Shown piece by piece: positions 37,221-50,045 of a stretch of 64,000 nt of DNA. This stretch comes from an uncultured Methanosarcinaceae archaeon (GTDB lineage: Archaea; Halobacteriota; Methanosarcinia; Methanosarcinales; Methanosarcinaceae). Both the position numbers and the translations under genes were made by a program. The notes beneath the pieces were generated by a model. That model had not been told where the DNA came from, searched no databases, and saw only the letters and a list, made by a program, of their open reading frames with translations. The DNA lies in assembly GCA_963833425.1 (NCBI GenBank), contig CAWHXP010000008.1, positions 468,578 to 532,577 on the forward strand. Direction: 5' to 3'. The number at the start of each line of letters is the position of its first letter. The first letter of the stretch is position 1.

Positions 37221-39746
37221 TTGGTCAATAATGAGAATAAATTCGAATTTTGAAGTATTCCTACAGCTGACATGTTGAACAAACTCCAAATAACAACCGA
37301 TGGTCTGAAAAGTGCAGAAGTTGATGAACGTCGTAATAGGTATGGAGCTAATATTCTCAAACCAAAAAAACGAACCGACACCCTCACACTTCTGCTGTCC
37401 CAATTCAAGAGTCCAATTACTCTTATCCTCATTTTTGCATCTGGACTTTCTTTTTTTCTCGGTGACGTCACAGATACTGTAATCATCGTAATTATTATCC
37501 TGATCAGCAGCATGCTGGGTTTTTGGCAGGAAAAGGGTGCTGCTGACGCTTTTGGTAAACTGCTGGCTGCTGTGCAGATAAAAGCTGCTGTGCTTAGGGA
37601 TGGTGAAGAAAAAGAAATTCCTGTGGAAGAAATTGTGCCTGGAGACATAGTAATCCTCAACGCCGGGGATATCATACCTGCAGACTGCCTAATTCTGGAA
37701 TCAAAAGATCTATTTGTTAGTGAAGCGACTCTCACTGGAGGGACTTATCCTGTAGAAAAAGTTCCAGGCGTGCTGAAAGCAGAAACCCCTCTCGCAAGGC
37801 GCACAAATTCTCTCTGGATGGGAACTAGTGTGGTCAATGGTAGCGGAAAAGTTCTAGCAGTTTCCACAGGGAAGGGAACTGAGTTTGGAAAAATATCCGA
37901 GAGATTAAAACTCAGGCCCCCGGAAACAGAATTTGAAAAAGGAATTTCAAATTTTGGACATTTTCTGATGGAAGTTACGATACTGATGGTATTAGTCGTA
38001 TTTGTGATAAATGTATATCTCAAGCGCCCGATTTTGGAATCATTTCTCTTCTCACTAGCTCTTGCAGTTGGGCTGACCCCTCAGCTCCTTCCTGCAATCA
38101 TCAGCGTCAATCTTTCCCATGGAGCAAGAGAGATGGCGAAAAAGAAAGTTATTGTCAAGAGGCTGGCTTCCATTGAAAACCTTGGCAGCATGAATTTGCT
38201 CTGTTCCGACAAGACCGGTACTTTGACCGAAGGCGAACTACAACTTCACTTTTTTCAAGATCTTAAAGGAAATCAGAATGAAAAGGTCCTATTCTATGCT
38301 AGCCTTAATGCCTATTACCAGAAAGGCTTTGAAAACCCAATCGATAGGGCAATTCTAGAATATAATAAATTTGATCTGGCTAAGTATAAAAAACTAGATG
38401 AAGTTCCTTATGATTTCTTGCGCAAAAGATTGAGCATCCTCGTCTCAAAAAGCGATACGAACCTTATGATCACCAAAGGTGCACTTAAGAACATTCTTGA
38501 AATTTGCTCCTCAGCAGAGATCGAACCTGGAAAGACCGTAGAAATTTCCGATTTGAAGAAAATAATTGAGCAGCAATTTGAAGAGTTCAGTAAAAACGGG
38601 CTCCGTACTCTTGGTATTGCATACAGAGAAATGGGCCAGCAGAAGATTATAGGAAAGGAGAACGAAATCGATATGACCTTTTTAGGATTCCTCTTCTTTT
38701 TTGACCCCCCAAAACAGGGGATTGTAAATATAATCGAAAACATGGAAAAACTTGGAATTTCTCTAAAAGTGATTACCGGAGATAATAAGTATGTAGCTAC
38801 CAGTATCTGCAGGGAGATCGGCCTCAAGAATGCCAGAGTCATAACTGGACGTGAACTTGATAAAATGAGCAGTGAGGCCCTGATAAAGCAGACAAAAGAT
38901 ACTGATATCTTTGCCGAGGTAGAACCGAATCAGAAAGAGCACATTATTCTTGCGCTCAAGAAAAGCGGAAACGTTGTTGGATTTATCGACGGGATCAATG
39001 ATGCGTCTTCTCTTCATGCAGCAGATGTAGGAATCTCTGTTGATAGTGCTGCAGACGTTGCAAAAGAAGCTGCAGATATTGTGCTGATGGAAAAAAGCCT
39101 GGATGCACTTATTGAGGGGGTAAAAGGAGGACGAAAAACATTTGCTAACACCCTAAAGTATGTCTTTATGGCTACAAGTGCCAATTTAGGGAACATGTTT
39201 AGTATGGCAGAAGCGTCCCTTTTCCTGCCTTTTCTACCTCTGTTGCCCACGCAGATTCTACTAACCAATTTATTAACTGATTTTTCGGAGATGACTATAG
39301 CTACGGATTCTGTGGATAAGGAATTGGTCGAAGAGCCGCATCGCTGGGATATAGGTTTCATCCGCAAGTTTATGATGGTATTTGGCATTATAAGTTCTGT
39401 ATTTGACTATTTGACCTTCGGTGTTCTACTCTTCCTCCTACCAGGTATGACAGAGCAATTCAGAACTGGCTGGTTTGTGGAATCCGTTATTTCGGCATCG
39501 ATGATAGTTCTGGTAATCAGGAGCAGGAAACCATTTTTTAGGAGTAAACCTGGAAAATACCTGCTTGCAGCCACCCTCGTGATAGTAGGCCTGACTCTTT
39601 GCATCCCATTTACTTTTTTTGCGGCTCCTTTTGGCTTCAAACCTCTTCCAATTACGGTAATTTTAATAATTGGAGCCATAGTAGGGCTATACATCCTTAC
39701 GGCTGAAATAATAAAAAGATTTTTTTACAAAAGAACAACATTTTGA
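37221..39746 (+). pseudogene. mgtA: Mg2+-translocating P-type ATPase, probably inactivated (ORF from 37272 remains open)
   Basis: CSDKTGTLT and PQLLP are present. The RBS-linked TTG at 37221 runs into an in-frame TGA at 37251; TGE(S/T) reads TGGT and GDGIND reads DGIND. Confidence 0.75.
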
Positions 39747-40390
39747 GCTCAATATGTACTGATCCCACAGATGATTTTCAACCCTCTTCGGAGTCATTCT
39801 GACTTCGCTAAATTCTATTGTAATGTGACTGGCATTGCTCCTTATTCAAATTGAATTTGAGAACATCAAAGTCAATTACTCAGAAGATATGGATGCTTTT
39901 GCAAAAAGCCTTATTAATGGAACGTTAACAAAAAATTTGTGTAAGTTTTAGCCCTTTTAGTCGTTATTCTACTCGTCGGTGCTCCCTTATTAATTAGTTG
40001 ATATTTTGAACGATCTATAGTCTAGAGTTTTTTTATTTTTTCTGATTCTTCTCCAATTATAAAAGAAAAATCAAAATCGACAATTTCTCTTTGGAGTAGT
40101 CACTCTTCAACTAGATAATTATTTTCAATCAACGAAAAACAATGAACAGCAAAATTTTTGCCTATGTTTTTGATGACTCGATTATTCTTCGATTATTCTA
40201 TGACTTTCAGGAATGTACAAGTTTCTACCAATTAAATCCAGTAAATGCAAAAAAAGTATTAAAAGCATAGCAAAATTAAATAAGTGCTCTTGAATTCGAT
40301 TTTTAAGTTGAATCGGTAAATACTAATTACAAGAATACTTTCACCTAACTTCCTCAAACCTTTTTATGTTTTTAATTTCATATTACGACG

Positions 40391-41497
40391 ATGCTCACCC
40401 TTAATCCTAAAGTAAATAATTTTGAAAGGCCGATTACCTTCCATATAGACATGGATAGCTTTTTCGCATCTGTAGAGGTCAGAGAAAAGCCAGAACTGAA
40501 GGGATTGCCAGTGGTTGTAGGCTCTGACCCTAAAGGGGGATCAGGCAGGGGAGTTGTGAGCACTTGTTCATATGAGGCGAGAAAATATGGAATTCACTCC
40601 GCAATGCCAATTTCAAAGGCCTACAGGCTCTGTCCTGATGCTGTCTTTTTGCCTGTAAATATGAACCTATATGTTGGAGTTTCGGTAAATGTAATGGAAC
40701 TCTTGAAAGGGTTAGCAGTAAAATTTCAGCAAGTAAGTGTTGATGAAGCCTATATATTACCAGGGCCTGATATCGGGAATTTTGAGGAGGCTGCTATCTA
40801 CGCCCTTAGAATTAAGGATAAAGTCCAAAGGCAGGAAGGAATTACCTGTTCTGTAGGAGTCGGGCCAAATAAGCTTATTTCAAAGATTGCTTCTGGATAT
40901 CAGAAACCTGACGGGCTTACGATTGTAAGGCCTGAAGAAGCCAGAAAATTTCTTTTCCCGCTAAAAGTTTCAAAGATTCCCGGAATAGGGAAGAAAATGA
41001 CCGAGGCCTTAAAAGAGGTGGGAATAACCAAAGTAGGAGAACTCGCAAATTGCAATGTTCAGCTGCTTTTGGAAAGGTTTGGAAAGATGGGGGGCCACAT
41101 GAAGCAGATGGCAAATGGGCTCGATTTTGAAGAGGTTCGGGAAAGAGAAAGAGTGAATTCGATAAGTAGGCATGTGACATTGGATGAAGATACAAAAGAC
41201 CCTGTGAAAATTCAAGGGACCCTGGACATACTTGCTGAGAGTGTACACAACTCTCTCCTGAAACACCGCTTCCTTTTCAAAACAGTAACCCTTACAGTCC
41301 GTTTTGAAGACTACTCCACGTACACACGCTCAAAAACTGCCCCAATTTGGACTTCGGATATTTTTGTTATTAAACGGACAGTTATACAGCTCATTTCGGA
41401 ATTTTTTGGCAGGCAAAAATTCAGGCTTGTAGGGGTAGGAGTCACAAAATTAAGGGAAAGAGACAAGATACAGACTTTGATTACAGATTTTACATAA
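40391..41497 (+). CDS. dinB: DNA polymerase IV (Y-family)
   Basis: HIDMDSFFASVE, SYEARKYG, SVDEAY and KPDG motifs. Confidence 0.95.
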   Translation: MLTLNPKVNNFERPITFHIDMDSFFASVEVREKPELKGLPVVVGSDPKGGSGRGVVSTCSYEARKYGIHSAMPISKAYRLCPDAVFLPVNMNLYVGVSVNVMELLKGLAVKFQQVSVDEAYILPGPDIGNFEEAAIYALRIKDKVQRQEGITCSVGVGPNKLISKIASGYQKPDGLTIVRPEEARKFLFPLKVSKIPGIGKKMTEALKEVGITKVGELANCNVQLLLERFGKMGGHMKQMANGLDFEEVRERERVNSISRHVTLDEDTKDPVKIQGTLDILAESVHNSLLKHRFLFKTVTLTVRFEDYSTYTRSKTAPIWTSDIFVIKRTVIQLISEFFGRQKFRLVGVGVTKLRERDKIQTLITDFT

Positions 41498-41648
41498 TCG
41501 CTCTAGAGACTCTTTATTATTTTCGAAGTTTTTGATTGATTGCAGTTAATTGCCAGTGAAATTGATGTTGAATGTTAGCGATCAAAGGAGATATTAAAAA
41601 TCTCGAGATTTTTGTGCTCACTCTTTTCAATAAATCGCGAACATTACA

Positions 41649-44405
41649 TCAGTTCATTTTCCTGACAATTAGCTTCTTCATAGCCGTTTTTTCATCCATT
41701 TTTTTATCTGTATTTTCAGTGCTTTCAGAATCTTCGATCCAGACCCAGAAATGATATTCATTGTCAATTCCAGGGTCTCTAATGTGAATCTCAATGGGAT
41801 CTATTCTTGTAATTTCCCTTTTCTCTCTGAATTTTCGAAGAAATATTTTTGCTGCAGCTTTTTCGGGAGCAAGCGCTGAGATTACTCCTATAATTCCCCG
41901 ATTTTTATCCGTGGCAATGAAGATTCTTTCCTTTTTTTCTTGTTTAACTGAAGATTTCTGTTTTATGGCTTCCAGCCTGATCTGTCTCTTTACATTAGTA
42001 AAAACTTTGTCAGTATTTTTTTCTTCAGGAGCTGGCCTTAAAGATTTTATTTTGGAGAGGCTCTCTTCTTTTCTCTCATATGGGATATAAGGGACTTTCC
42101 CCATAATTTCGTGCAGGATCATGATTGCAGCATGCTTATCTAGAGGTTCGTTGTTATTTCCGCATTTTGGAGATTGGATACAGCTAGGGCAACCACTTTC
42201 ACAGGGGCAGCTCTCAATTGCTTTTAAAGTGCCTTCAAGTATCTTTTCGATCAAGTCATATCCTTTTTCGGCATATCCGACTCCACCTTTGTGCCCGTCA
42301 TAGATGAATATTCCACTTTTGCCTCCAAGATCATGATGTGTTGGAGTGGAAACCCCACCCACATCGCTTCTGTCTACAAGTAGATTAAGAGGGTACATGG
42401 AAATCATTGCATGCTCGACTGCATGAATCCCACCAGCAAAATCCAATTTATGTTCTCCTATCTTCTCCTGCAGTCTGTCCGGAAGCTTTATCCAAAGGGC
42501 TATTGTATTGAGAGTCGTAGGAGGCATTTCAAGGTTGTATGTACTTATTGTTTCGTTGCTGTGGGTCTGAATTTTTCTGTACCCTATAACTCTATCAGTT
42601 ACTTCTACTTCCCCAAGCCCTATTTCAACCTCTTGAGCATGTAAAAGGGCTTTTGTTGCATAGTTCTCCTGCACCAGGATTGATGAGTTGATCATAGGTT
42701 TTGTATAATAAGCATCATGTGTTTTTATGGCATGAATCTCATTTTTTCCATTGTCTATCTTGTTTATGTAGTAGGGATCTCCACTGTGCATATAGACAGC
42801 ACCCGGGTAGCACTCCCGAAAAGCTAGAGCCTTCTCTATGTCTTTTTCGAGGGGGAAGCTTTTTTCTCCTTCAAAGGCAAGGAGGGAATAAGTGTCATTA
42901 TCTATTCCCCGTAGAGAGACATGTTTGTATGGAAAATTATCAGTCGAATATTTCAGGTCGTTACCCGCAAGCATGCCTTCGGCTTTCAAGAGTTCTACAA
43001 CTCTTGGATACCCCTTTCCAAAATACTTCTCATCGGATGCTCGCAGAGGAATTTCTTTTGCAGCGCAGAGTAAGTGTCCAGCAAGGATGTATGGATTTTT
43101 AGGGTTAAGAACTGCATTTTCGCTACTTCTCACAAAAAAATCAGTAGGATTTCTCATGTAGTACTGATCAAGAGCATTTGTTCCTGCTACTAGGACAACA
43201 ATACTTTCTTTTCCGCGCCGACCTGCTCTTCCTGCCTGTTGCCTTGAGCTCATAACAGTTCCTGGATAGCCGTCCAGAATACAAGCATCAAGCCTTCCCA
43301 TATCTATCCCGAGTTCGAGGGCATTTGTGGAAACTACACCCCTAAGTTCTCCTGAATTCATTTTTTTTTCGATTTCTTCTCTTTCTCTGTCAAAATAGCC
43401 GCTTCTGTATGAGCAGATTGCTTGGGAAAGATTTCTATTCTTCAAAAGCTCCCTGCAATTTTTATACATCCTTTCAACTCCTTGCCTGGACCTGGTAAAG
43501 GCAAGAGTTTGCAACCCCACCTGGACAAATCTTGTAAAAAGGGAAGAAGCCTCAGAAAAGCTACTCCTTCTGAGAGTACAGCCTCTATTATTCAGATATA
43601 GAGGAGGATTCCAGAATATGAATTTTTGAGGACCATTTGAAGAGCCGTTATTCTCAACCACCTCTGCTTCCCGCCCAAGAAGGACCTCTGTATGTTCTTT
43701 TGGGTTTCCAATTGTTGCAGAACAACAGATGAACTGAGGAGAAGCCCCATAATATTCAGCAACTCGCAAAAGTCTGCGAAGCAGGTTTGCCATATTGCTT
43801 CCTATGACCCCTCTATAATAATGGCTCTCATCAACTACTATGAATTTGAGGTTGGAGAAAAAACGCCTCCATAGGTGGTGCCAGGCAAGAAAACTCATGT
43901 GAACCATTTCAGGGTTTGTGAAAACAATATTCTTTTGCCCTTCCCTGACTTTCCTTTTCTGGGCCTCACTAAGTGCTCCGGTATAACGGGCTATGACTGC
44001 CCCTGATCCTAATGTTTCTTCGAATTCCACAAAAGCCTTTAACTGATCGTTTACAAGAGCGTTTAAAGGAGAAATATAAAGTGCAGTTGCTTTCGAGTCA
44101 TCGAGGACGGTTTCAAAAATCGGGATCATATACGTTAGGGACTTTCCACTTGCTGTGGTTGTACAAAGCACGATGTTTTTTCCTTCTCGGATTTTATCGA
44201 TGGCCTCTTTTTGATGGGCGTACAGATATTCGATCCCTAATCCTGAAAGAACAGCTTCTACTTGTGTTTTCAGCTTAAGAGGAGCATAAATGGCTTTCCT
44301 GGCGGGAATCTCCTCTATATGTACTATCTGGTTTTGATAATGACTGGATGATTTTATTTCATTCAGCAGGCGGAGGATATTCATTCCTTGCTCCATTTTT
44401 TTCAT
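41649..44405 (-). CDS. DEAD/DEAH helicase with DUF1998 (MrfA/YprA family) and a C-terminal MC1-like extension
   Basis: TASGKS, DESH, SAT, TNALELGID and QQAGRAGR motifs; CPCESGCPSC zinc motif. Confidence 0.93.
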   Translation of the reverse strand: MKKMEQGMNILRLLNEIKSSSHYQNQIVHIEEIPARKAIYAPLKLKTQVEAVLSGLGIEYLYAHQKEAIDKIREGKNIVLCTTTASGKSLTYMIPIFETVLDDSKATALYISPLNALVNDQLKAFVEFEETLGSGAVIARYTGALSEAQKRKVREGQKNIVFTNPEMVHMSFLAWHHLWRRFFSNLKFIVVDESHYYRGVIGSNMANLLRRLLRVAEYYGASPQFICCSATIGNPKEHTEVLLGREAEVVENNGSSNGPQKFIFWNPPLYLNNRGCTLRRSSFSEASSLFTRFVQVGLQTLAFTRSRQGVERMYKNCRELLKNRNLSQAICSYRSGYFDREREEIEKKMNSGELRGVVSTNALELGIDMGRLDACILDGYPGTVMSSRQQAGRAGRRGKESIVVLVAGTNALDQYYMRNPTDFFVRSSENAVLNPKNPYILAGHLLCAAKEIPLRASDEKYFGKGYPRVVELLKAEGMLAGNDLKYSTDNFPYKHVSLRGIDNDTYSLLAFEGEKSFPLEKDIEKALAFRECYPGAVYMHSGDPYYINKIDNGKNEIHAIKTHDAYYTKPMINSSILVQENYATKALLHAQEVEIGLGEVEVTDRVIGYRKIQTHSNETISTYNLEMPPTTLNTIALWIKLPDRLQEKIGEHKLDFAGGIHAVEHAMISMYPLNLLVDRSDVGGVSTPTHHDLGGKSGIFIYDGHKGGVGYAEKGYDLIEKILEGTLKAIESCPCESGCPSCIQSPKCGNNNEPLDKHAAIMILHEIMGKVPYIPYERKEESLSKIKSLRPAPEEKNTDKVFTNVKRQIRLEAIKQKSSVKQEKKERIFIATDKNRGIIGVISALAPEKAAAKIFLRKFREKREITRIDPIEIHIRDPGIDNEYHFWVWIEDSESTENTDKKMDEKTAMKKLIVRKMN

Positions 44406-45708
44406 ACTAGAACTTTGAAGTACAAAATCAACTACTTCAGGCGTTTAGTTAAACTTGTGCTTTTGACAGTTGAATGTTTTATGCTATTAATTTTTCAGCA
44501 CAACTGCTTAAGAGCTTATTTGAAAAGTAGAATAACTACGATATAAGTCGTGTTTGGTCATGACAACAAGAAAAATCTGGCACGACTGTGAGATATTTGA
44601 TGAATTTTGTGAGAAAGTAGAACAATTACTAGTAGTGGAATGAATTTACTCTAAATTCGACGACAAATTTTTGTTTACTGCGTTTAACTTGGTTCTTCAT
44701 ATACGAAATATTTCTACTTAATAATTTATTAAGATTTATGATTTTACAGCAAATAAAGCACGCTCCAGAGCAAATTTAAAAAAATAATGAGATTCATATA
44801 AATTATTGAAAATTAATTTCTGGCATATTACGGTAATTTGGCGGCATATGTAAAAAATGTTTCCAAAAGCCTCCAATTTCTACATTTACCAAGTTCTCAA
44901 AAATAATTAACACCTAACAAGACGCCATCAATTGGATTCTAGATATCGGGTATTTCATTGAGACTTATGCCTTTGTGGCATCAAATCAAGTGCAATAGAC
45001 ATTTGTTTAGTTAGAAATTACGTGTTTGAAGTAAGGAATCAAAAACTTTAGGCATGTAGTATGATCAAAAAAGAAGATTAAAGAGTGGATAGTAGATTTT
45101 ACGCAAAATTCTGCACACTGGCAAGAGTTAGGATAAAGCTTTAGACCTTATCAAAGCTTAAGGACCTTTTTGATTTTTAAAGAACTGGGAAACAGTGTTG
45201 AGACGGTCACTCTAAAGAATAATCAATCCTGAGGAAAAAATTTTTTAAGAACTATCTTTTTTATGTATTATCGATTGTCTCCAATTTAGCAAATCGACAT
45301 TAGATTTTAAAATTTTATTAATCATTTATTCGCGTATTAGCTGCACTCCCTGAGAAAATATACCAAAAATTCTGTAAATCAAGAAAAATAATTAGGCATA
45401 AATTTACTTATATTGATCATTTTTTAGTTAACCTGGATGAGTCACTTTTAGTGTATAACCAGGCAATATTTCCTTGGACGCTTTTAAAAACACACATTAG
45501 ATTGTCTTAATAAAAGAGGATTTTTAATTTATCAAGGATTGCTAAAATTTACCATTAATTCAACTGGCAATTGACTTAAATCAATCAAAAACCTAGAAAA
45601 TAATAAAAAGTCTCATATATCGAAGAAACACCTTAATTTATGAAGTAAATATATCAAAAGATTTGAGAAAGATAGCCTTTAAGACAACGAAATATCAAAT
45701 ATCATCAC

Positions 45709-46146
45709 ATGAACCTGGAGAAACTCTACATTATTTCTGTATATGCCATTCTACGGAATGAGAAAGGAGAATTTTTGCTTCTCAGGCGATCGCAAAATTC
45801 TCACTCAAACCTAGGTAAGTGGGATCTGCCAGGAGGAAAACTAAATCATAGAGAATTGCTTGAGGAAGCCATTGTGCGGGAGGTACGGTAAGAGACAGGG
45901 ATTTCAATTATCCCGGGGAATATTGCAGGATATGCTACCTTTGAGCTCCCGGATAAACGGATTATTGCCGTAGTATACGATGGCGGGTACGTTATTGCAG
46001 ATGTCAAGTTGAGCTATGAGCATATTGAGTATGCATGGATATCTCTTGATACGATCCTGGAGATGAACCAGCTTCCGATTTATTTTAGAGATTTCTTCAA
46101 AAGATTCGACATACAAAATAAAAAATTTTCGGAACCATCAATTTAA
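45709..46146 (+). pseudogene. Nudix hydrolase with a nonsense codon inside the Nudix box
   Basis: WDLPGGK..EEAIVREVR*ETG (TAA at 45889); the frame continues to LSYEHIEYAWI and a stop at 46146. Confidence 0.88.
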
Positions 46147-46624
46147 TTCAAATAAGAGCTCATTTGTCGTTCCATATTTCGTGATCGATGTTAGTGCCTG
46201 AATACTATTAGTACCGTTTCTCAGCTCTTTTGTTTCGCACTACAGTAGACAACAGTAGAGCCCGCTCAATCAATAAAAACGCAAACAAATGTTTCAATGA
46301 GGCTTGACCATGAAAACATCATTATGTATTAGTGGACATCCATATAGCGAATAGCTCAAAAATGACTTTAATTTACATCAAATTCGCAAAGCTGCATTTA
46401 ATTAGTGCAGGATAAGATGTCTATGAAATTTGATTATAAAATCTGAAAAATATAGATGTTTTTATTTTAAATGTTGCTCCCTTTCATGATTTTTGTTATT
46501 AAAAAGCTTTCTTATATCACATATATATCCTAGAGATCTGGAATCTCGATCCTTAGTTATGACAACACCAGTTAATAACTGATATCTCTATAGTCATCAT
46601 GATGTATTAATAAATATGTTTTAA

Positions 46625-46855
46625 AGGCTGCAGGAAAGGGATACCTACAGCCCGTTAGACTGTCTGGGGAGTCCGTGACAATTTTTCACTAATCAGACAC
46701 ATAACTACACTAAAACATTTTATTTCGGGGTTTATCAACAGCGCATTTATGGATCACAATATATTAGCTGAACAGGATATAATATCTATTTTTTGTATAT
46801 ATTGAATATAGTATTAACTTTAACTAATTAGTATCAAATGTACGTAATCCTTAAC
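46625..46855 (-). repeat. Dispersed element copy E (inverted)
   Basis: Reverse complement contains ctaattagttaaagttaatac and cagacagtctaacgggctgtagg-tatcccttt-cctgcagcc. Confidence 0.65.
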
Positions 46856-47642
46856 CCACGAACTGTGATATCAACCTCTTGGGAAAGAGATTATAATCCA
46901 ATGGTATCCATATGCAAAAACGTAAACTGTAAAGCAAAACATATTAAGAAATTTCTTCTACTTAAGCTTAAAAGATGGAGAAATTTCTTATAAATATATA
47001 AAGTGAGACTGTAGTATCGAAAAATTGAGCTTTAGATTCAGTTTATTCATATTTTTTATTTTGTTTAGACTAGTATACAATTATTTTTTTTGTTTTTCTA
47101 TTCATGATTGTGATTTAGTTTAATTAGTTTAATTAGTTTAAAATGTCCCAAGAGCCTCACATGCTCCATCTGCTCTGTGAGCTCCCTAAGCTCTATGAGT
47201 AATGAATCAGCAATGTTTTCATCTAGATAGAACTCGGAAAATTCAAAAATTTTGCTACAAAAATTATGCCTCTTATATTAAATTGCTATTAAGAATTTAA
47301 TTTTATTGCTGTAGGTCTTTTGGACTTGGATCTAAGCAAAGATCAACAGAACTGGTTAAGAAGGGTTGTGAATTATTCTTTTTAGTAAATAGCAAAATTA
47401 TTTTTTCTTTGGCAGAAGTCTGACTTCTTATAATGTTTTTTTCAGTCATCATAACTATCTACGCAACAATTTTTTAGCTCATAACATTGCATCCCGCAAT
47501 TATTTTATTTTCTTGCCTTTATACGGTAATTAGGGGTTTCTAAAGGTATGAGTGTATTTACTTTTTGAAAAGATGAAACTGCTCTTTTCTCAGTGAAGTG
47601 AGAAAACTTCGTCCAATCCTTATGACCATCAAAGACATTAGA

Positions 47643-47815
47643 TATCAAAAAATTGATCTTGTGAGATGCAAGCGAAGAAAGGCCTACAGCCCAATTAAAT
47701 GCCTGGGTTAAGGGACTGGAAAACTTCTGAGATATAAATATATTTAAATTATTATATTGAGATATATATCCTAAATAATCATAACTTGAACTAATTCGCA
47801 CGGACATTTTGTGAC
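47643..47815 (-). repeat. Dispersed element copy F (inverted, degenerate stem)
   Basis: Reverse complement: gcgaattagttcaagttatg..gggctgtaggcctttcttcgcttgcatctcacaagatcaattttttgatat. Confidence 0.7.
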
Positions 47816-48100
47816 CCTTTTACCTCGAATTATAACAGATGTGAAATACAAACTCTACATCGATGTATATCTGCAAAATCTGGCGCAAAGAATTGTTATA
47901 GATTTTAAAATCCAACAATTTTCAATTTTAAGTTAATCACTGAAATTTGGAATTGAGTCCTTAAGATCATTTGAGTGACTTGATTCGTTTATCCGAGTTT
48001 TGCTTCCCAATTTTCGTTCGGAAAAACGGGATCTTTTTCTGTTCCTTCAATCAGATCCATATAATTCTTAAAATGAAATAGAAAATAATAAAGATAAACA

Positions 48101-48883
48101 TTAAACAGAGAATTCGAGTTCAAGTCCTACAGGACAGTGGTCTGAGCCCATTATTTTGGAATAAATTGGAGCAGACTTCATATTCTCTCGAAGATTTTCG
48201 CTGACAAAAAAATAATCTAGCCGTCAGCCAATATTTCTTTCTCGCGCCTTAGTTCTTATTGACCACCAAGAATAGTTCTCACCATTTGTGTTGAACATGC
48301 GAAACGTGTCAATATATCCTGCAGCAAGGAACTTGTCTATCCAAGCCCTCTCTTCTGGGAGAAAATCTGATAAAGTCTTGTTTTCTCTGGGATGGACGAG
48401 ATCAATTTCTTTATGGGCAGTGTTCACATCACCGCAGATGACAAGTTTTTTTCTTTCGGATTTGAGGGCGTTTGCGTATTCAAAAAAGGATTGATAAAAG
48501 TCCATCTTAAAGTCCAAGCGCTCCTGAGAAGCTTTTCCATTAGGGAAGTAAATATTCATTAAGGTAAAGTCATCGTAATCGACTCTGAGGAAGTGACCTT
48601 CCTTATCAAACTTTTCGATTCCCATTCCAGTCTCAACATTCAGAGGCTTTCACTTTGAAAAAATTCCTACCCCACTGTAGCTTCTCTGTTCTGCTGAAAC
48701 GAAATATTTGAAGTAGCCCGAAATATTCTTGACTTCCCTCGGGAGTTTGTCAGGAGAAGCTTTAGTTTCTTGGATGCAGATGGCATCAAATTTCTGATCT
48801 AGCAAAAAATCAAGAAATTTTTTTTTAACTGCAGCCCGAATATCGTTTACATTCCATGAAACAAGGTTGTAGTGGCTATACAT
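48101..48883 (-). pseudogene. xth: Exodeoxyribonuclease III / AP endonuclease
   Basis: SWNVN, QETK, YFPNG, GDVNTAH, IG*RLDYFF and GSDHCPV motifs; in-frame TGA at 48650 and 48224. Confidence 0.93.
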
Positions 48884-50045
48884 TATTTTCACGACTCAAT
48901 ATTATTCTGTGATCTTGATTTTATCATGGTGGCTTCGAATTTCATTTACTGATACTAAATATCCATAATACTATTCTATGTTAAAATTTTGTGTCATGTC
49001 TAGGAGTTATTGATCTAATCTGACAACAGATTGAGTTCCTGTGTTAGATAAAATGTGAATGGATTCAATTTATCATAAGTTCCAAATGTAGTGATTTTCG
49101 AACATAATTCCTGGAGATGTAGCATCAAAAATAACACTTTTTAAAGTTTTAAACTTTAACCGAATCAAATCGATTAAACTTAACATGTTGAGAGCTTGCT
49201 TATGCATAACTTTTATTGTAAAACATAGGCAAGTTCTCAATATCGACATCTCCTCACTACTATTGCGCTATAACCTACTTCACAAATCTAAAAATATATA
49301 GAAAATATACGCAGTTAATTTTAAACAAACTTATTCTAAATGTGGGTAAGTTGCATTTTCGGAGTTGATTTCTGATTACTCACATTAAAATTTCCAACTT
49401 GGAATTTTAAGTCAAAAGATAAATCATAATTTTATAAAAATAATATTCTCAAATTAATTTCAATTAAAAATCGATAAAAATGGCATTTATTAAATTTTAC
49501 TATACTTTTTCTGCATTCGCTAGTGGATACTAGTAGGAGTAAACAACCTTATTCAATGAAGTATGAAATAATCGAGTTCATAGGCACATAGCTAAAAAAT
49601 GAGGTGAGTGCCTTCCTGTAGTAGAAGTGCTGGTGACGAATACATACATATACTAAAATTTAATTCATTCTATGTCTTGAGTGTTATGTCTATTACAATA
49701 TTGTATTGCTCTATGCATACTGTAAATAAACATTAATTTTTGAAGAGATATCCTGCCGCAATTAACAGTAGTGATTAAATTATCACATTCTTAATAAAAA
49801 ATAGTGGTTTTAGGTATTAACATCAGAATTTTTGCAAATTTTGAGTTCATTTTCTACTCAAAATTGTAGAACCTAGAAAAAAAACACGTTCTGATTCCAA
49901 GGCTTTTATTTAAGCTCTCAAGATATGGCTAAATTGAATTGCATTAGAGATATTTTAAAAGCTCTTAGAAAATATCAAAGTAAAAAAATATGAAGTTTGG
50001 AGAAGATATACAAAGAAATGGTTGATATATCTATTTTCTTGGAAG

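What the first reader, a model, noticed from the sequence alone, without database searches (positions are those of the whole stretch)
41733..41930. MrfA/DUF1998 helicase fused to an MC1-like chromatin domain
Seen: after the CPC..CPSC zinc motif and a charged linker, the tail reads RIFIATDKNRGIIGVISALAPEKAAAKIFLRK..DPIEIHIRDPGIDNEYHFWVWIE. Known: Methanosarcina non-histone protein MC1 reads (from recall) RNFVLRDEDGNEHGVFTGKQPRQAALKAANR..NPDIIRLRERGTKKVHVFKAWKE. The pattern R.F...D.....GV.....P..AA.K...R...P..I..R..G......F..W.E is shared. Inference: a repair helicase has acquired a DNA-bending/bent-DNA recognition module, possibly linking it to MC1 chromatin or distorted DNA. I do not know this fusion as described.
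Basis: partly seen in the sequence, partly recalled or inferred. Interest (0 to 1): 0.7.

Follow-up and report, generated by a model that had tools for sequence, protein, structure and literature searches.

The report
Repair helicase carrying a diverged MC1-like tail
A Methanosarcina DNA-repair helicase of the MrfA type ends in a diverged copy of the chromatin protein MC1 that has lost MC1's DNA-bending residues and sits where related genera carry a TPR protein-binding module.

Summary
ORF 41649..44405 (-) encodes a 918-aa MrfA/YprA-type helicase. It matches solved B. subtilis MrfA at E 4e-149. Residues 823-918 form an extra domain that MrfA lacks.

Evidence that this domain is a diverged MC1 fold:
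- Pfam MC1 matches end to end but below cut-off (16-17 bits against 23).
- MC1 is the only hit of the tail profile among PDB sequences.
- hhalign against stand-alone MC1 gives 96% probability, E 1e-9, 87 columns; 150 column shuffles reach at most 21.8 against 51.6.
- The predicted secondary structure has the same order as MC1.
- The closest predicted structures are giant-virus MC1-domain proteins (TM up to 0.73).

The NMR structure 1t23 was not retrieved, but a genuine MC1 model retrieves it only weakly.

Core residues are invariant in 36 tails. The bending determinants are gone: Arg25 is Glu/Asp in 36 of 36, the Trp74/Met75 wedge is deleted, the arm is acidic, and net charge is about +4 against +14.

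The fusion occurs in 32 of 34 other genomes of the genus and in two sister genera. It is under purifying selection (dN/dS 0.18). Orthologues in six other genera carry three TPR repeats instead.

I read it as a new domain architecture. Its function as a DNA or chromatin tether is inferred, and MC1-like bending is unlikely.

The parts
41649..44405 (-). Whole gene: 918-aa MrfA/YprA-type SF2 helicase with a C-terminal extension (stop codon 41649-41651)
   Evidence: ORF list and translation. phmmer to PDB: B. subtilis YprA/MrfA 6znp_A, E 4.4e-149, residues 16-745 against 10-732 of 751.
43701..44219 (-). RecA1 (DEAD/DEAH box) domain, residues 63-235
   Evidence: Pfam PF00270, E 3e-31.
43212..43520 (-). 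RecA2 (Helicase_C), residues 296-398
   Evidence: Pfam PF00271, E 4.7e-15.
42903..43106 (-). Hrq1-type winged-helix domain, residues 434-501
   Evidence: Pfam PF22982, E 4.9e-15.
42177..42419 (-). MrfA Zn-binding domain (MZB/DUF1998) with the four-Cys motif, residues 663-743
   Evidence: Pfam PF09369, E 8.9e-24, 84.4 bits. CPC..CPSC is read directly in the translation.
41940..42176 (-). End of the MZB region and a Lys/Arg/Glu-rich linker (residues 744-822). It contains the conserved basic helix motif (V/A)xRQ(I/L)R that is also present in the TPR-tailed and tail-less orthologues.
   Evidence: Sequence: the 75 residues after KCGN have 17 K+R, 11 D+E, net +6. Conserved across tail types. dN/dS 0.12. 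Expanded to about 190 aa with KKEY-type repeats in L039.
41652..41939 (-). MC1-like domain, residues 823-918
   Evidence: Pfam MC1 17.3 bits, E 0.0059, profile positions 2-83 of 96. The PDB profile search hits only 1t23_A MC1. hhalign 96.3% / E 1.4e-9 and 94.2% / E 1.2e-7. AF2 pLDDT 82 with strand-strand-helix-strand-strand-arm-strand order. BFVD hits to MC1-domain proteins, TM up to 0.73.
41733..41930 (-).
   Evidence: Core residues equivalent to MC1 F6, G17, P24, A27, K30, P42, I45, F58 and W61 are invariant in 36 of 36 tails. The Arg25 equivalent is Glu in 35 and Asp in 1.
41679..41732 (-). Arm equivalent (residues 892-909): acidic, variable, predicted disordered, without the Trp/Met wedge
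   Evidence: pLDDT below 50 at domain positions 73-77 and 79-84. Arm length is 16-23 in 36 tails, against 19 in MC1. Net charge is -5 to +1, against +1 to +4. 0 of 36 contain Trp.
41655..41678 (-). Strand 5 with the retained Lys-Lys..Ile patch (residues 910-917)
   Evidence: The K85 equivalent is K/R in 34 of 36, the K86 equivalent K/R in 36 of 36, and the I89 equivalent I/V in 36 of 36. Strand predicted at domain positions 88-94.

Best explanation
The last 96 residues of this MrfA/YprA-type 3'-5' repair helicase are a true but strongly diverged MC1-fold domain. It most likely arose from an MC1 gene and was fused behind the zinc-binding MZB domain in the common ancestor of Methanosarcina and two sister genera. 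There it took the place of a three-repeat TPR module that orthologues in other Methanosarcinaceae still carry.

It hangs on a flexible basic linker of about 55-80 residues (elastic in length between genera) from the MZB domain. In solved MrfA, the MZB domain lines the DNA entry funnel.

Inferred mechanism: the domain acts as a tethered accessory or targeting module. It holds the helicase on duplex or chromatin DNA ahead of it through the retained strand-5 Lys-Lys/Ile minor-groove patch and the basic linker. It does not impose the sharp MC1 bend, because the Arg25 clamp and the Pro/Trp/Met wedge are gone.

Shown here: the architecture, homology at profile level, conservation, purifying selection, loss of the bending residues, and the TPR alternative. 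Inferred: the origin, the direction of the swap, and DNA binding. My odds are about 0.9 for homology and about 0.45 for the tether function.
For: Helicase identity: Pfam DEAD, Helicase_C, WHD_HRQ1 and MZB. End-to-end match to solved MrfA, E 4.4e-149. B. subtilis MrfA ends with MZB at residue 749 (PMC7797055, passages), so residues from about 750 to 918 are extra.

MC1 homology:
- Pfam MC1 is the top family for 5 of 6 tails, best E 8e-4, over nearly the whole profile.
- The profile of 6 tails against 177,635 PDB sequences hits only MC1 1t23_A (E 0.01, positions 5-95 against 4-92).
- hhalign gives 96.3%, E 1.4e-9, 87 columns and 94.2%, E 1.2e-7, with shuffle controls.
- The tail profile finds stand-alone MC1 genes in other genera at per-genome E 8e-6 to 1e-3 over positions 3-95.
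- In 1.84 billion representatives it finds P0018 at E 2.7e-7. P0018 passes the Pfam MC1 cut-off at 43.8 bits.
- The nearest ESM Atlas clusters are MC1 (0.91, 206 of 256 features).

Fold:
- The AF2 tail model (pLDDT 82) has elements E5-10, E16-22, H25-37, E49-55, E60-70, E88-94.
- The AF2 model of genuine MC1 has E2-7, E13-19, H22-32, E41-47, E52-64, E76-89. The NMR description agrees.
- In BFVD, the top 14 hits are giant-virus proteins, and 6 of the 50 listed are named MC1 domain-containing, with TM up to 0.73.
- The tail model and the MC1 model share 11 of their 50 listed neighbours among 48,161 chains.

Conservation:
- The fused tail is in 32 of 34 other genomes of the genus, 6 of 6 of g13 (one broken) and 1 of 2 of g2.
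- dN/dS is 0.18, against 0.048 for the core.

Swap:
- 13 of 13 fetched orthologues from six other genera end in TPR-like sequence, and 3 of 3 scanned pass the Pfam TPR cut-offs.
- On the core tree, the 8 MC1-tailed rows form one side of a 100/100 branch.

Retained and lost DNA-contact residues: one search read.
Against: - The tail fails Pfam's own MC1 cut-off (16.4-17.3 bits against 23).
- BLASTP finds nothing.
- Three searches of solved structures did not list MC1. Their force is small, because a genuine MC1 model reaches 1t23 only at TM 0.46 and Z 3.7, rank 7.
- No BFVD hit reaches E 0.001.
- Arg25 is called essential in the MC1 model, and its equivalent here is Glu or Asp (charge reversed) in all 36 tails.
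- The arm is acidic and the net charge is only about +4. DNA binding itself is therefore uncertain, and no assay exists.
- It replaces a TPR, which is a protein-binding module. That favours a protein-binding role at least as much as a DNA-binding one.
- The direction of the swap rests on a midpoint root only.
- Two complete genomes of the genus lack the helicase altogether, so the gene is dispensable.
Confidence: 0.5

Rival explanations
1. The MC1-like domain no longer binds DNA. It is a protein-interaction module or a DNA/chromatin mimic. Like the TPR it replaced, it recruits a partner (a nuclease, MC1 itself or another chromatin protein). Alternatively its acidic arm folds back on the basic linker or the DNA funnel as an autoinhibitory plug.
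For: - It occupies the position of a TPR module.
- In B. subtilis the partner exonuclease MrfB carries three C-terminal TPRs, and removing a terminus of MrfB abolished its interaction with MrfA (bioRxiv 10.1101/426304, passages).
- The Arg25 equivalent is Glu or Asp in 36 of 36 tails. The arm has net charge -5 to +1. Several members of MC1's basic patch are lost (K22, K53, K54, H56, R71).
- Net charge is +4.2 against +14.3.
Against: - The Lys-Lys/Ile strand-5 patch and K30, K81 and K91 equivalents are conserved, and the flanking linker is basic.
- No partner gene is linked: the only PF13482 (YprB-type) gene lies on another contig, and the DinB neighbour is not conserved.
- No binding prediction could be run.
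Confidence: 0.27
2. The domain is an MC1-type bent-DNA or junction sensor. It binds and bends DNA, or recognises distorted DNA, in essentially the MC1 manner and steers the helicase to lesions or junctions.
For: - MC1 prefers four-way junctions and minicircles (PMC3928310, passage).
- The fold core and the strand-5 contact site are conserved.
- The arm keeps MC1's length (16-23 against 19 residues).
- Some giant-virus MC1-like proteins also lack the critical Arg/Lys (bioRxiv 10.1101/2024.02.22.580433, passage).
Against: - Substituting Ala for Trp74 or Met75 abolishes bent-DNA recognition and strongly reduces bending in MC1. Here both are deleted and 0 of 36 arms contain Trp.
- The Arg25 equivalent is acidic in 36 of 36 tails.
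- The arm is predicted disordered and is acidic.
Confidence: 0.12
3. The resemblance to MC1 is convergent or due to chance. The tail is an unrelated small alpha/beta domain, or a decaying remnant without function.
For: - Below the Pfam cut-off.
- BLASTP negative.
- No solved-structure match to MC1.
- Both profiles have low diversity (Neff 1.5-2.1).
Against: - Independent methods all point only to MC1.
- The match is end to end, with the same order of secondary-structure elements.
- MC1's buried core residues are the invariant ones.
- dN/dS of 0.18 and an intact frame in 38 of 39 genomes that carry it argue against decay.
Confidence: 0.07

Closest known systems
MC1 (Methanogen Chromosomal protein 1; Pfam PF05854; PDB 1T23, 2KHL, 2NBJ)
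   Same: - About 90 residues with the same order of two strands, a helix, two strands, a long arm and a fifth strand.
- Conserved core residues (F6, G17, V18, P24, A27, A28, K30, P42, I45, F58, W61 equivalents).
- Conserved Lys85/Lys86/Ile89 equivalents, and a similar arm length.
   Different: - Not a stand-alone abundant basic protein, but the C-terminal domain of an enzyme.
- Arg25 equivalent is Glu or Asp.
- The Pro72/Trp74/Met75 wedge is deleted and the arm is acidic and variable.
- A 5-residue insertion follows the helix.
- Net charge about +4 against about +14.
- Below the Pfam cut-off.
Bacillus subtilis MrfA/YprA (PDB 6ZNP) and the DUF1998/MZB helicase family (M. smegmatis SftH, yeast Hrq1)
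   Same: NTR-RecA1-RecA2-WH-OB-CON-MZB core, aligned over residues 16-745 at E 4.4e-149. Four-Cys zinc motif.
   Different: - About 170 extra C-terminal residues (linker plus MC1-like domain), whereas MrfA ends at MZB residue 749.
- No adjacent MrfB-type exonuclease gene.
- Within its class the gene was found almost only in one family: f1 75 of 86, f2 1 of 7, and 0 of 107 in four other families.
TPR-tailed orthologues of the same helicase in six other Methanosarcinaceae genera (loci L054-L066)
   Same: Same core (53-57% identity), same basic linker helix, and the same position of the terminal module.
   Different: The terminal module is three TPR repeats (Pfam TPR_1/TPR_2, E 1e-9 to 4e-17) instead of the MC1-like domain. 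One orthologue from another family (L067) has neither module.
Giant-virus MC1-like proteins (mimivirus gp275/R252 and relatives)
   Same: - An MC1-fold domain embedded in a larger protein and diverged at the critical Arg position.
- They are the closest predicted structures to the tail model.
- P0018, with four tandem MC1-like repeats, is the only non-helicase relative found by the tail profile.
   Different: The viral proteins are DNA-condensing architectural proteins flanked by disordered regions, not enzymes. None is fused to a helicase: 'helicase' occurs 0 times in the main text of that preprint.

Membership tests
MC1 (PF05854) | Scores above Pfam's gathering cut-off (23 bits) | tested here: not met
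   16.4 bits (153-aa tail) and 17.3 bits (96-aa domain). 5 of 6 orthologous tails list MC1 as the top family, best E 8e-4.
MC1 (PF05854) | Significant profile-profile similarity over the whole domain | tested here: met
   hhalign 96.3%, E 1.4e-9, 87 columns and 94.2%, E 1.2e-7. Shuffles reach at most 21.8 against 51.6. The tail profile's only PDB sequence hit is 1t23_A.
MC1 (PF05854) | Fold: strand 1, strand 2, helix, strand 3, strand 4, arm (LP5), strand 5 pseudo-barrel | tested here: inconclusive
   - The order of elements matches in the AF2 models of the tail and of genuine MC1 and in the NMR description.
- BFVD: TM 0.50-0.73 to giant-virus proteins, including 6 named MC1 domain-containing, but no E <= 0.001.
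- 1t23 is not listed for the tail. The genuine MC1 model reaches it only at TM 0.46 and Z 3.7.
- The two models share 11 of 50 neighbours.
MC1 (PF05854) | Fully conserved Pro24-Lys30 segment with Arg25, which neutralises phosphates in the narrowed major groove | tested here: not met
   P24, A27 and K30 are kept in 36 of 36 tails and A28 in 33 of 36. Arg25 is Glu in 35 and Asp in 1. Q26 is Lys in 35 (feature taken from PMC3928310).
MC1 (PF05854) | Hydrophobic wedge Pro72/Trp74/Met75 in the arm, needed for bending and bent-DNA recognition | tested here: not met
   Trp/Met/Pro fall in a 3-residue deletion in the alignment. 0 of 36 arms contain Trp, 3 contain Met and 5 contain Pro. Arm net charge is -5 to +1.
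MC1 (PF05854) | Strand-5 minor-groove patch Lys85, Lys86, (Arg88), Ile89 | tested here: met
   K/R in 34 of 36 and 36 of 36, and I/V in 36 of 36. The Arg88 equivalent is hydrophobic; the paper notes that Arg88 varies within the family.
MC1 (PF05854) | Small, strongly basic, stand-alone architectural protein | tested here: not met
   It is the C-terminal domain of a 918-aa enzyme. Net charge is +2 (window), mean +4.2 over 36 tails, against +14.3 over 13 MC1 proteins. The tail profile found no intact stand-alone copy of the tail type, only 9 fragments of 52-118 aa.
MC1 (PF05854) | Binds and sharply bends duplex DNA; prefers junctions and minicircles | not testable with these tools
   Needs gel-shift, circularisation or microscopy assays with the purified domain.
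MrfA/YprA (DUF1998) helicases | SF2 RecA1/RecA2 core with a DExH motif, a WH domain, and a C-terminal MZB with four cysteines | tested here: met
   Pfam DEAD 108.9 bits, Helicase_C 56.2, WHD_HRQ1 56.8, MZB 84.4. DESH and CPC..CPSC are read in the translation. 6znp_A matches at E 4.4e-149 over the whole core.
MrfA/YprA (DUF1998) helicases | Operon partner MrfB (DnaQ-like exonuclease, PF13482 type) next to the helicase | tested here: not met
   No such gene flanks the ORF. The single PF13482 match in the genome is on contig C2.
MrfA/YprA (DUF1998) helicases | 3'-5' DNA helicase activity and a role in mitomycin C or crosslink repair | not testable with these tools
   Known for B. subtilis MrfA, SftH and Hrq1 (PMC7797055, passages). 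No data for the archaeal protein.

The most novel reading that the evidence does not exclude
The domain is an MC1 copy turned into a chromatin-aware adaptor. Without its wedge and Arg25, and with an acidic arm, it no longer bends DNA. Instead it recognises or competes with MC1-organised DNA, or MC1 itself, so that the helicase can load on, or clear, MC1-bent chromatin at lesions. That would be a lineage-specific case of a repair enzyme domesticating its own chromatin protein, in exchange for a TPR adaptor.
Probability: 0.15. Interest if true: 0.75.

Novelty: new variant of a known kind. Interest (0 to 1): 0.52.

Why it matters

A conserved, selected MC1-fold domain inside a repair helicase would be the first archaeal case I could find of this fold used as an enzyme module. 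Three literature searches and the main text of a YprA-family survey do not mention it. That survey's supplements were closed, and I could not consult InterPro, Gene3D or SUPERFAMILY.

The domain is a natural MC1 variant in which the bending residues are removed but the strand-5 site is kept. That makes it a ready-made probe of which MC1 surfaces suffice for DNA recognition.

The TPR versus MC1-like exchange at one position shows that the C-terminus of archaeal MrfA homologues is a swappable targeting slot. This bears on the open question of how MrfA-type helicases find their lesions (raised in bioRxiv 10.1101/426304). Methanosarcina acetivorans is genetically tractable, so the idea is directly testable.

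Tried and rejected
- **BLASTP**, tail against the genome's own MC1: no alignment of the domain (E 37).
- **phmmer**, single tail against PDB: only a spurious flagellar protein at E 0.28.
- **Solved-structure searches with the tail model**: Foldseek pdb, VIA-align over 48,161 representatives and VIA second look at 694 chains. None listed MC1. Best were PaaB (Z 5.5) and PAS/LOV-like rows. The controls with a genuine MC1 model show that these searches barely recover 1t23, so I treat this as uninformative rather than negative.
- **Linkage to the convergent Y-family polymerase gene** (40391..41497): rejected. The adjacency is seen in 2 of 51 helicase loci.
- **MrfB-type partner next to the gene**: none.
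- **Rfam** on 39500..49000: no match.
- **Earlier notes of this scan**: none for this genome.
- **Sequencing runs**: only small shares (at most 0.16 of words). When laid, contigs 90-95% alike from three RNA libraries and one DNA run cover parts of the gene, including the tail (X20 41500-42255, X6 41719-42297). These come from relatives, and RNA libraries can hold DNA, so this is at most a weak hint of transcription.
- **Complex prediction** (helicase core 1-770 with the tail domain): could not be run because the queue stayed full. Nothing can be said on docking.
- **P0013 and P0014** (giant proteins hit in 8-9 short stretches): not examined; probably low-complexity matches.
- **Direction of the TPR/MC1 swap**: only a midpoint root was available, with no outgroup outside the order.
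Full report
**1. The observation**

The - strand ORF 41649..44405 encodes 918 residues. It contains SCPCESGCPSC at residues 732-742, then a Lys/Arg/Glu-rich stretch.

A fourth copy is decayed.

**2. The helicase**

Pfam finds four domains:
- DEAD, residues 63-235
- Helicase_C, residues 296-398
- the Hrq1-type winged helix, residues 434-501
- the MrfA zinc-binding domain MZB/DUF1998, residues 663-743

The best solved relative is B. subtilis YprA/MrfA (6znp_A, E 4.4e-149), aligned over residues 16-745 against 10-732 of 751. B. subtilis MrfA ends with MZB at residue 749 (PMC7797055, passages). The archaeal protein therefore has about 170 extra C-terminal residues.

A source names a close relative 'DEAD/DEAH box helicase [Methanosarcina sp.]'.

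**3. Is the tail MC1-like?**

*Sequence evidence*
- The tail alone matches Pfam MC1 over profile positions 2-83 of 96, at 16.4-17.3 bits. That is below the 23-bit cut-off. MC1 is the top family for 5 of 6 orthologous tails, best E 8e-4.
- A profile of six tails searched against all 177,635 distinct PDB sequences returns one hit, MC1 1t23_A (E 0.01, positions 5-95 against 4-92).
- Profile-profile comparison of 36 distinct tails with 13 stand-alone MC1 proteins gives 96.3% probability, E 1.4e-9, 87 aligned columns. The tool's own hhalign on smaller alignments gives 94.2%, E 1.2e-7.
- With the columns of the MC1 alignment shuffled 150 times, the score is 11.3 +/- 2.5 (max 21.8) against 51.6. Reversed, it is 9.2.
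- A plain global pairwise alignment to the genome's own MC1 has 23 of 87 identities and scores 62, against 13.0 +/- 5.6 for 1000 shuffles (max 39).
- BLASTP with composition adjustment found nothing.
- The tail profile, run over 151 genomes of the family, hits stand-alone MC1 genes (frames of about 100 aa) in other genera at per-genome E 8e-6 to 1e-3 over positions 3-95.
- Run over 1.84 billion representatives, it finds 12 proteins:
  - 9 short fragments of the same helicase tails;
  - 2 giant proteins hit in many short stretches, not examined;
  - P0018, a 469-aa protein with four tandem MC1-like repeats (E 2.7e-7), which passes the Pfam MC1 cut-off at 43.8 bits.
- The nearest ESM Atlas clusters by language-model features are MC1 clusters (0.91, 206 of 256 features).

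*Structure evidence*

| | AF2 tail model | AF2 model of genuine MC1 from this genome |
|---|---|---|
| Alignment depth | 6 sequences | 12 sequences |
| pLDDT | 82 (pTM 0.71) | 88 |
| Elements | E5-10, E16-22, H25-37, E49-55, E60-70, low-confidence loop, E88-94 | E2-7, E13-19, H22-32, E41-47, E52-64, E76-89 |

- The NMR description of MC1 is strand 1 residues 4-9, strand 2 15-21, helix 25-34, strand 3 43-49, strand 4 54-66, arm 67-77, strand 5 78-90 (PMC3928310, passage). The order of elements is the same.
- Searches of solved structures with the tail model did not list MC1.
- As a control, the genuine MC1 model finds 1t23 only at TM 0.46, rmsd 8.2 Å despite 84% identity. By VIA-align it is at rank 7, Z 3.7. 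These searches therefore cannot decide.
- The two models share 11 of their 50 listed neighbours out of 48,161 chains. All top four of the MC1 model are among them.
- Against predicted viral structures, the tail's top 14 hits are giant-virus proteins (probability 0.99-1.00, TM 0.50-0.73). Of the 50 listed rows, 6 are named 'Chromosomal protein MC1 domain-containing protein'. No hit has E <= 0.001.

I put homology to MC1 at about 0.9.

**4. What was kept and what was lost**

The MC1 paper names three recognition regions: Lys85/Lys86/Arg88/Ile89 on strand 5, the Pro72/Trp74/Met75 wedge in the arm, and Arg25 at the start of the helix. The segment Pro24-Lys30 is fully conserved in the family. Trp74Ala and Met75Ala abolish bent-DNA recognition and strongly reduce bending.

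Across 36 distinct tails:
- Kept in all 36: the equivalents of F6, G17, P24, A27, K30, P42, I45, F58 and W61.
- The Arg25 equivalent is Glu in 35 and Asp in 1.
- The K22 equivalent is Pro in 31.
- The K53 and K54 equivalents are Gly and Ser/Asn.
- Trp74, Met75 and Pro76 fall in a deletion, and 0 of 36 arms contain Trp.
- The arm keeps its length (16-23 residues against 19) but is variable and acidic (net -5 to +1, against +1 to +4 in MC1).
- The K85 equivalent is K/R in 34, the K86 equivalent K/R in 36, and the I89 equivalent I/V in 36.

Domain net charge is +2 in the window and +4.2 on average, against +14.3 for 13 MC1 proteins.

So the fold core and one of the two minor-groove contact sites survive. 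The clamp and the wedge that make the bend do not.

**5. Distribution and evolution**

- The fused tail is present in 32 of 34 other genomes of the genus. The two exceptions, G063 and G148 (99% and 90% complete), lack the helicase at E <= 1e-50.
- It is also in 6 of 6 genomes of genus g13 (one broken into several frames) and 1 of 2 of g2.
- Orthologues in g4 (27 of 34), g6 (3 of 3), g8 (7 of 11), g9 (1 of 1), g10 (13 of 13) and g16 (6 of 11) align only to about residue 750-837, yet their frames are 910-992 aa.
- All 13 that I fetched end in a TPR-like sequence after the same basic linker helix. 3 of 3 scanned pass the Pfam TPR cut-offs.
- One orthologue from another family (L067) has the linker helix and a short Lys-rich end, and neither module.
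- Within the class, the helicase was found in f1 in 75 of 86 genomes, in f2 in 1 of 7, and in 0 of 107 genomes of four other families.
- On a tree of the helicase core (22 rows; I used only the fetched full-length genes), the 8 MC1-tailed rows form one side of a 100/100 branch. The tail-less row is next to them (100/98). The 13 TPR rows lie on the other side. A midpoint root places TPR forms on both sides of the root, which suggests that TPR is the older state, but the root is not established.
- Nei-Gojobori dN/dS over 36 orthologues is 0.048 for 350 core codons, 0.12 for the linker and 0.18 for the MC1-like domain. dS is near 1, so these are rough figures.
- The linker varies in length. It is about 190 aa, with KKEY-type repeats, in L039.

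**6. Surroundings**

The convergent neighbour 40391..41497 is a Y-family polymerase. This adjacency occurs in only 2 of 51 helicase loci. No MrfB-type exonuclease gene is adjacent, and the single PF13482 gene is on another contig. The 3.8 kb upstream holds only short or split frames. Rfam finds nothing.

**7. Mechanism**

In solved MrfA, the MZB domain lines the wide funnel where the loading strand enters. The displaced strand is proposed to leave along MZB. A module tethered to MZB would therefore lie near the duplex ahead of the enzyme; this is inference.

I favour a tethered accessory module that holds or targets the helicase on duplex or chromatin DNA through the strand-5 Lys-Lys/Ile site and the basic linker, without MC1-type bending (about 0.45).

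The main rival is a protein-interaction or mimic role (about 0.27). It is suggested by three things: the TPR that the domain replaces, the acidic arm, and the TPRs of bacterial MrfB.

Non-homology or decay I rate at about 0.07.

**8. Novelty**

Three full-text searches returned no paper on an MC1-helicase fusion.
- The YprA-family survey has 0 occurrences of 'MC1' in its main text.
- A 2026 study that screens Methanosarcinaceae with PF05854 has 0 occurrences of 'fusion' and of 'helicase'.
- MC1-like domains inside larger proteins are known from giant viruses (bioRxiv 10.1101/2024.02.22.580433, passages).

I could not check InterPro, Gene3D or SUPERFAMILY. I class the finding as a new variant (a new domain architecture) of known kinds.

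Noticed in passing
window 40391..41497 (+): Y-family (DinB-type) DNA polymerase gene (IMS, IMS_HHH, IMS_C), convergent with the helicase, with 151 nt between the stop codons. The adjacency is seen in only 2 of 51 helicase loci.
   Followed up: yes
window 44406..48900: About 3.8 kb upstream of the helicase has almost no ORF of 100 aa or more. It holds a NUDIX-like fragment (45709..45891) and an exonuclease-III-like gene split into two frames (48224..48625 and 48650..48892). These are decayed genes or assembly errors; the genome is 80% complete.
   Followed up: no
P0018 (protein from the representative library): A 469-aa protein with four tandem MC1-like repeats separated by acidic spacers. It passes the Pfam MC1 cut-off (43.8 bits). 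It resembles the giant-virus MC1-like proteins that are the closest predicted structures to the tail.
   Followed up: partly
L039 (G001, genus g2), tail region: The linker between MZB and the MC1-like domain is expanded to about 190 aa by KKEY(K/E)-type tandem repeats and contains a run of N. This suggests the tether length is free to vary.
   Followed up: no
L043 (G041, genus g13): The helicase gene is broken into at least three frames, with a TAA inside the MC1-like tail. It is a pseudogene in 1 of 6 genomes of that genus.
   Followed up: no
L004 (G000:C3:359417-359632): A fourth, decayed MC1 copy in the window's own genome, with one TGA and one TAG inside the match, beside three intact MC1 genes (L001-L003).
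   Followed up: no
L067 (G262, another family of the order): The only helicase orthologue found outside the family. It keeps the basic linker helix but ends in a short Lys-rich stretch without a TPR or MC1-like module. It groups with the MC1-tailed clan on the core tree (100/98).
   Followed up: partly
models mc1f925ddbbf7 and m7dae9c1d8630: An AlphaFold model of genuine MC1 matches the NMR structure 1t23 poorly (TM 0.46; VIA Z 3.7, rank 7). Both MC1-type models list the anti-CRISPR AcrIF9 and PaaB among their best solved neighbours (Z 4.4-5.5).
   Followed up: no
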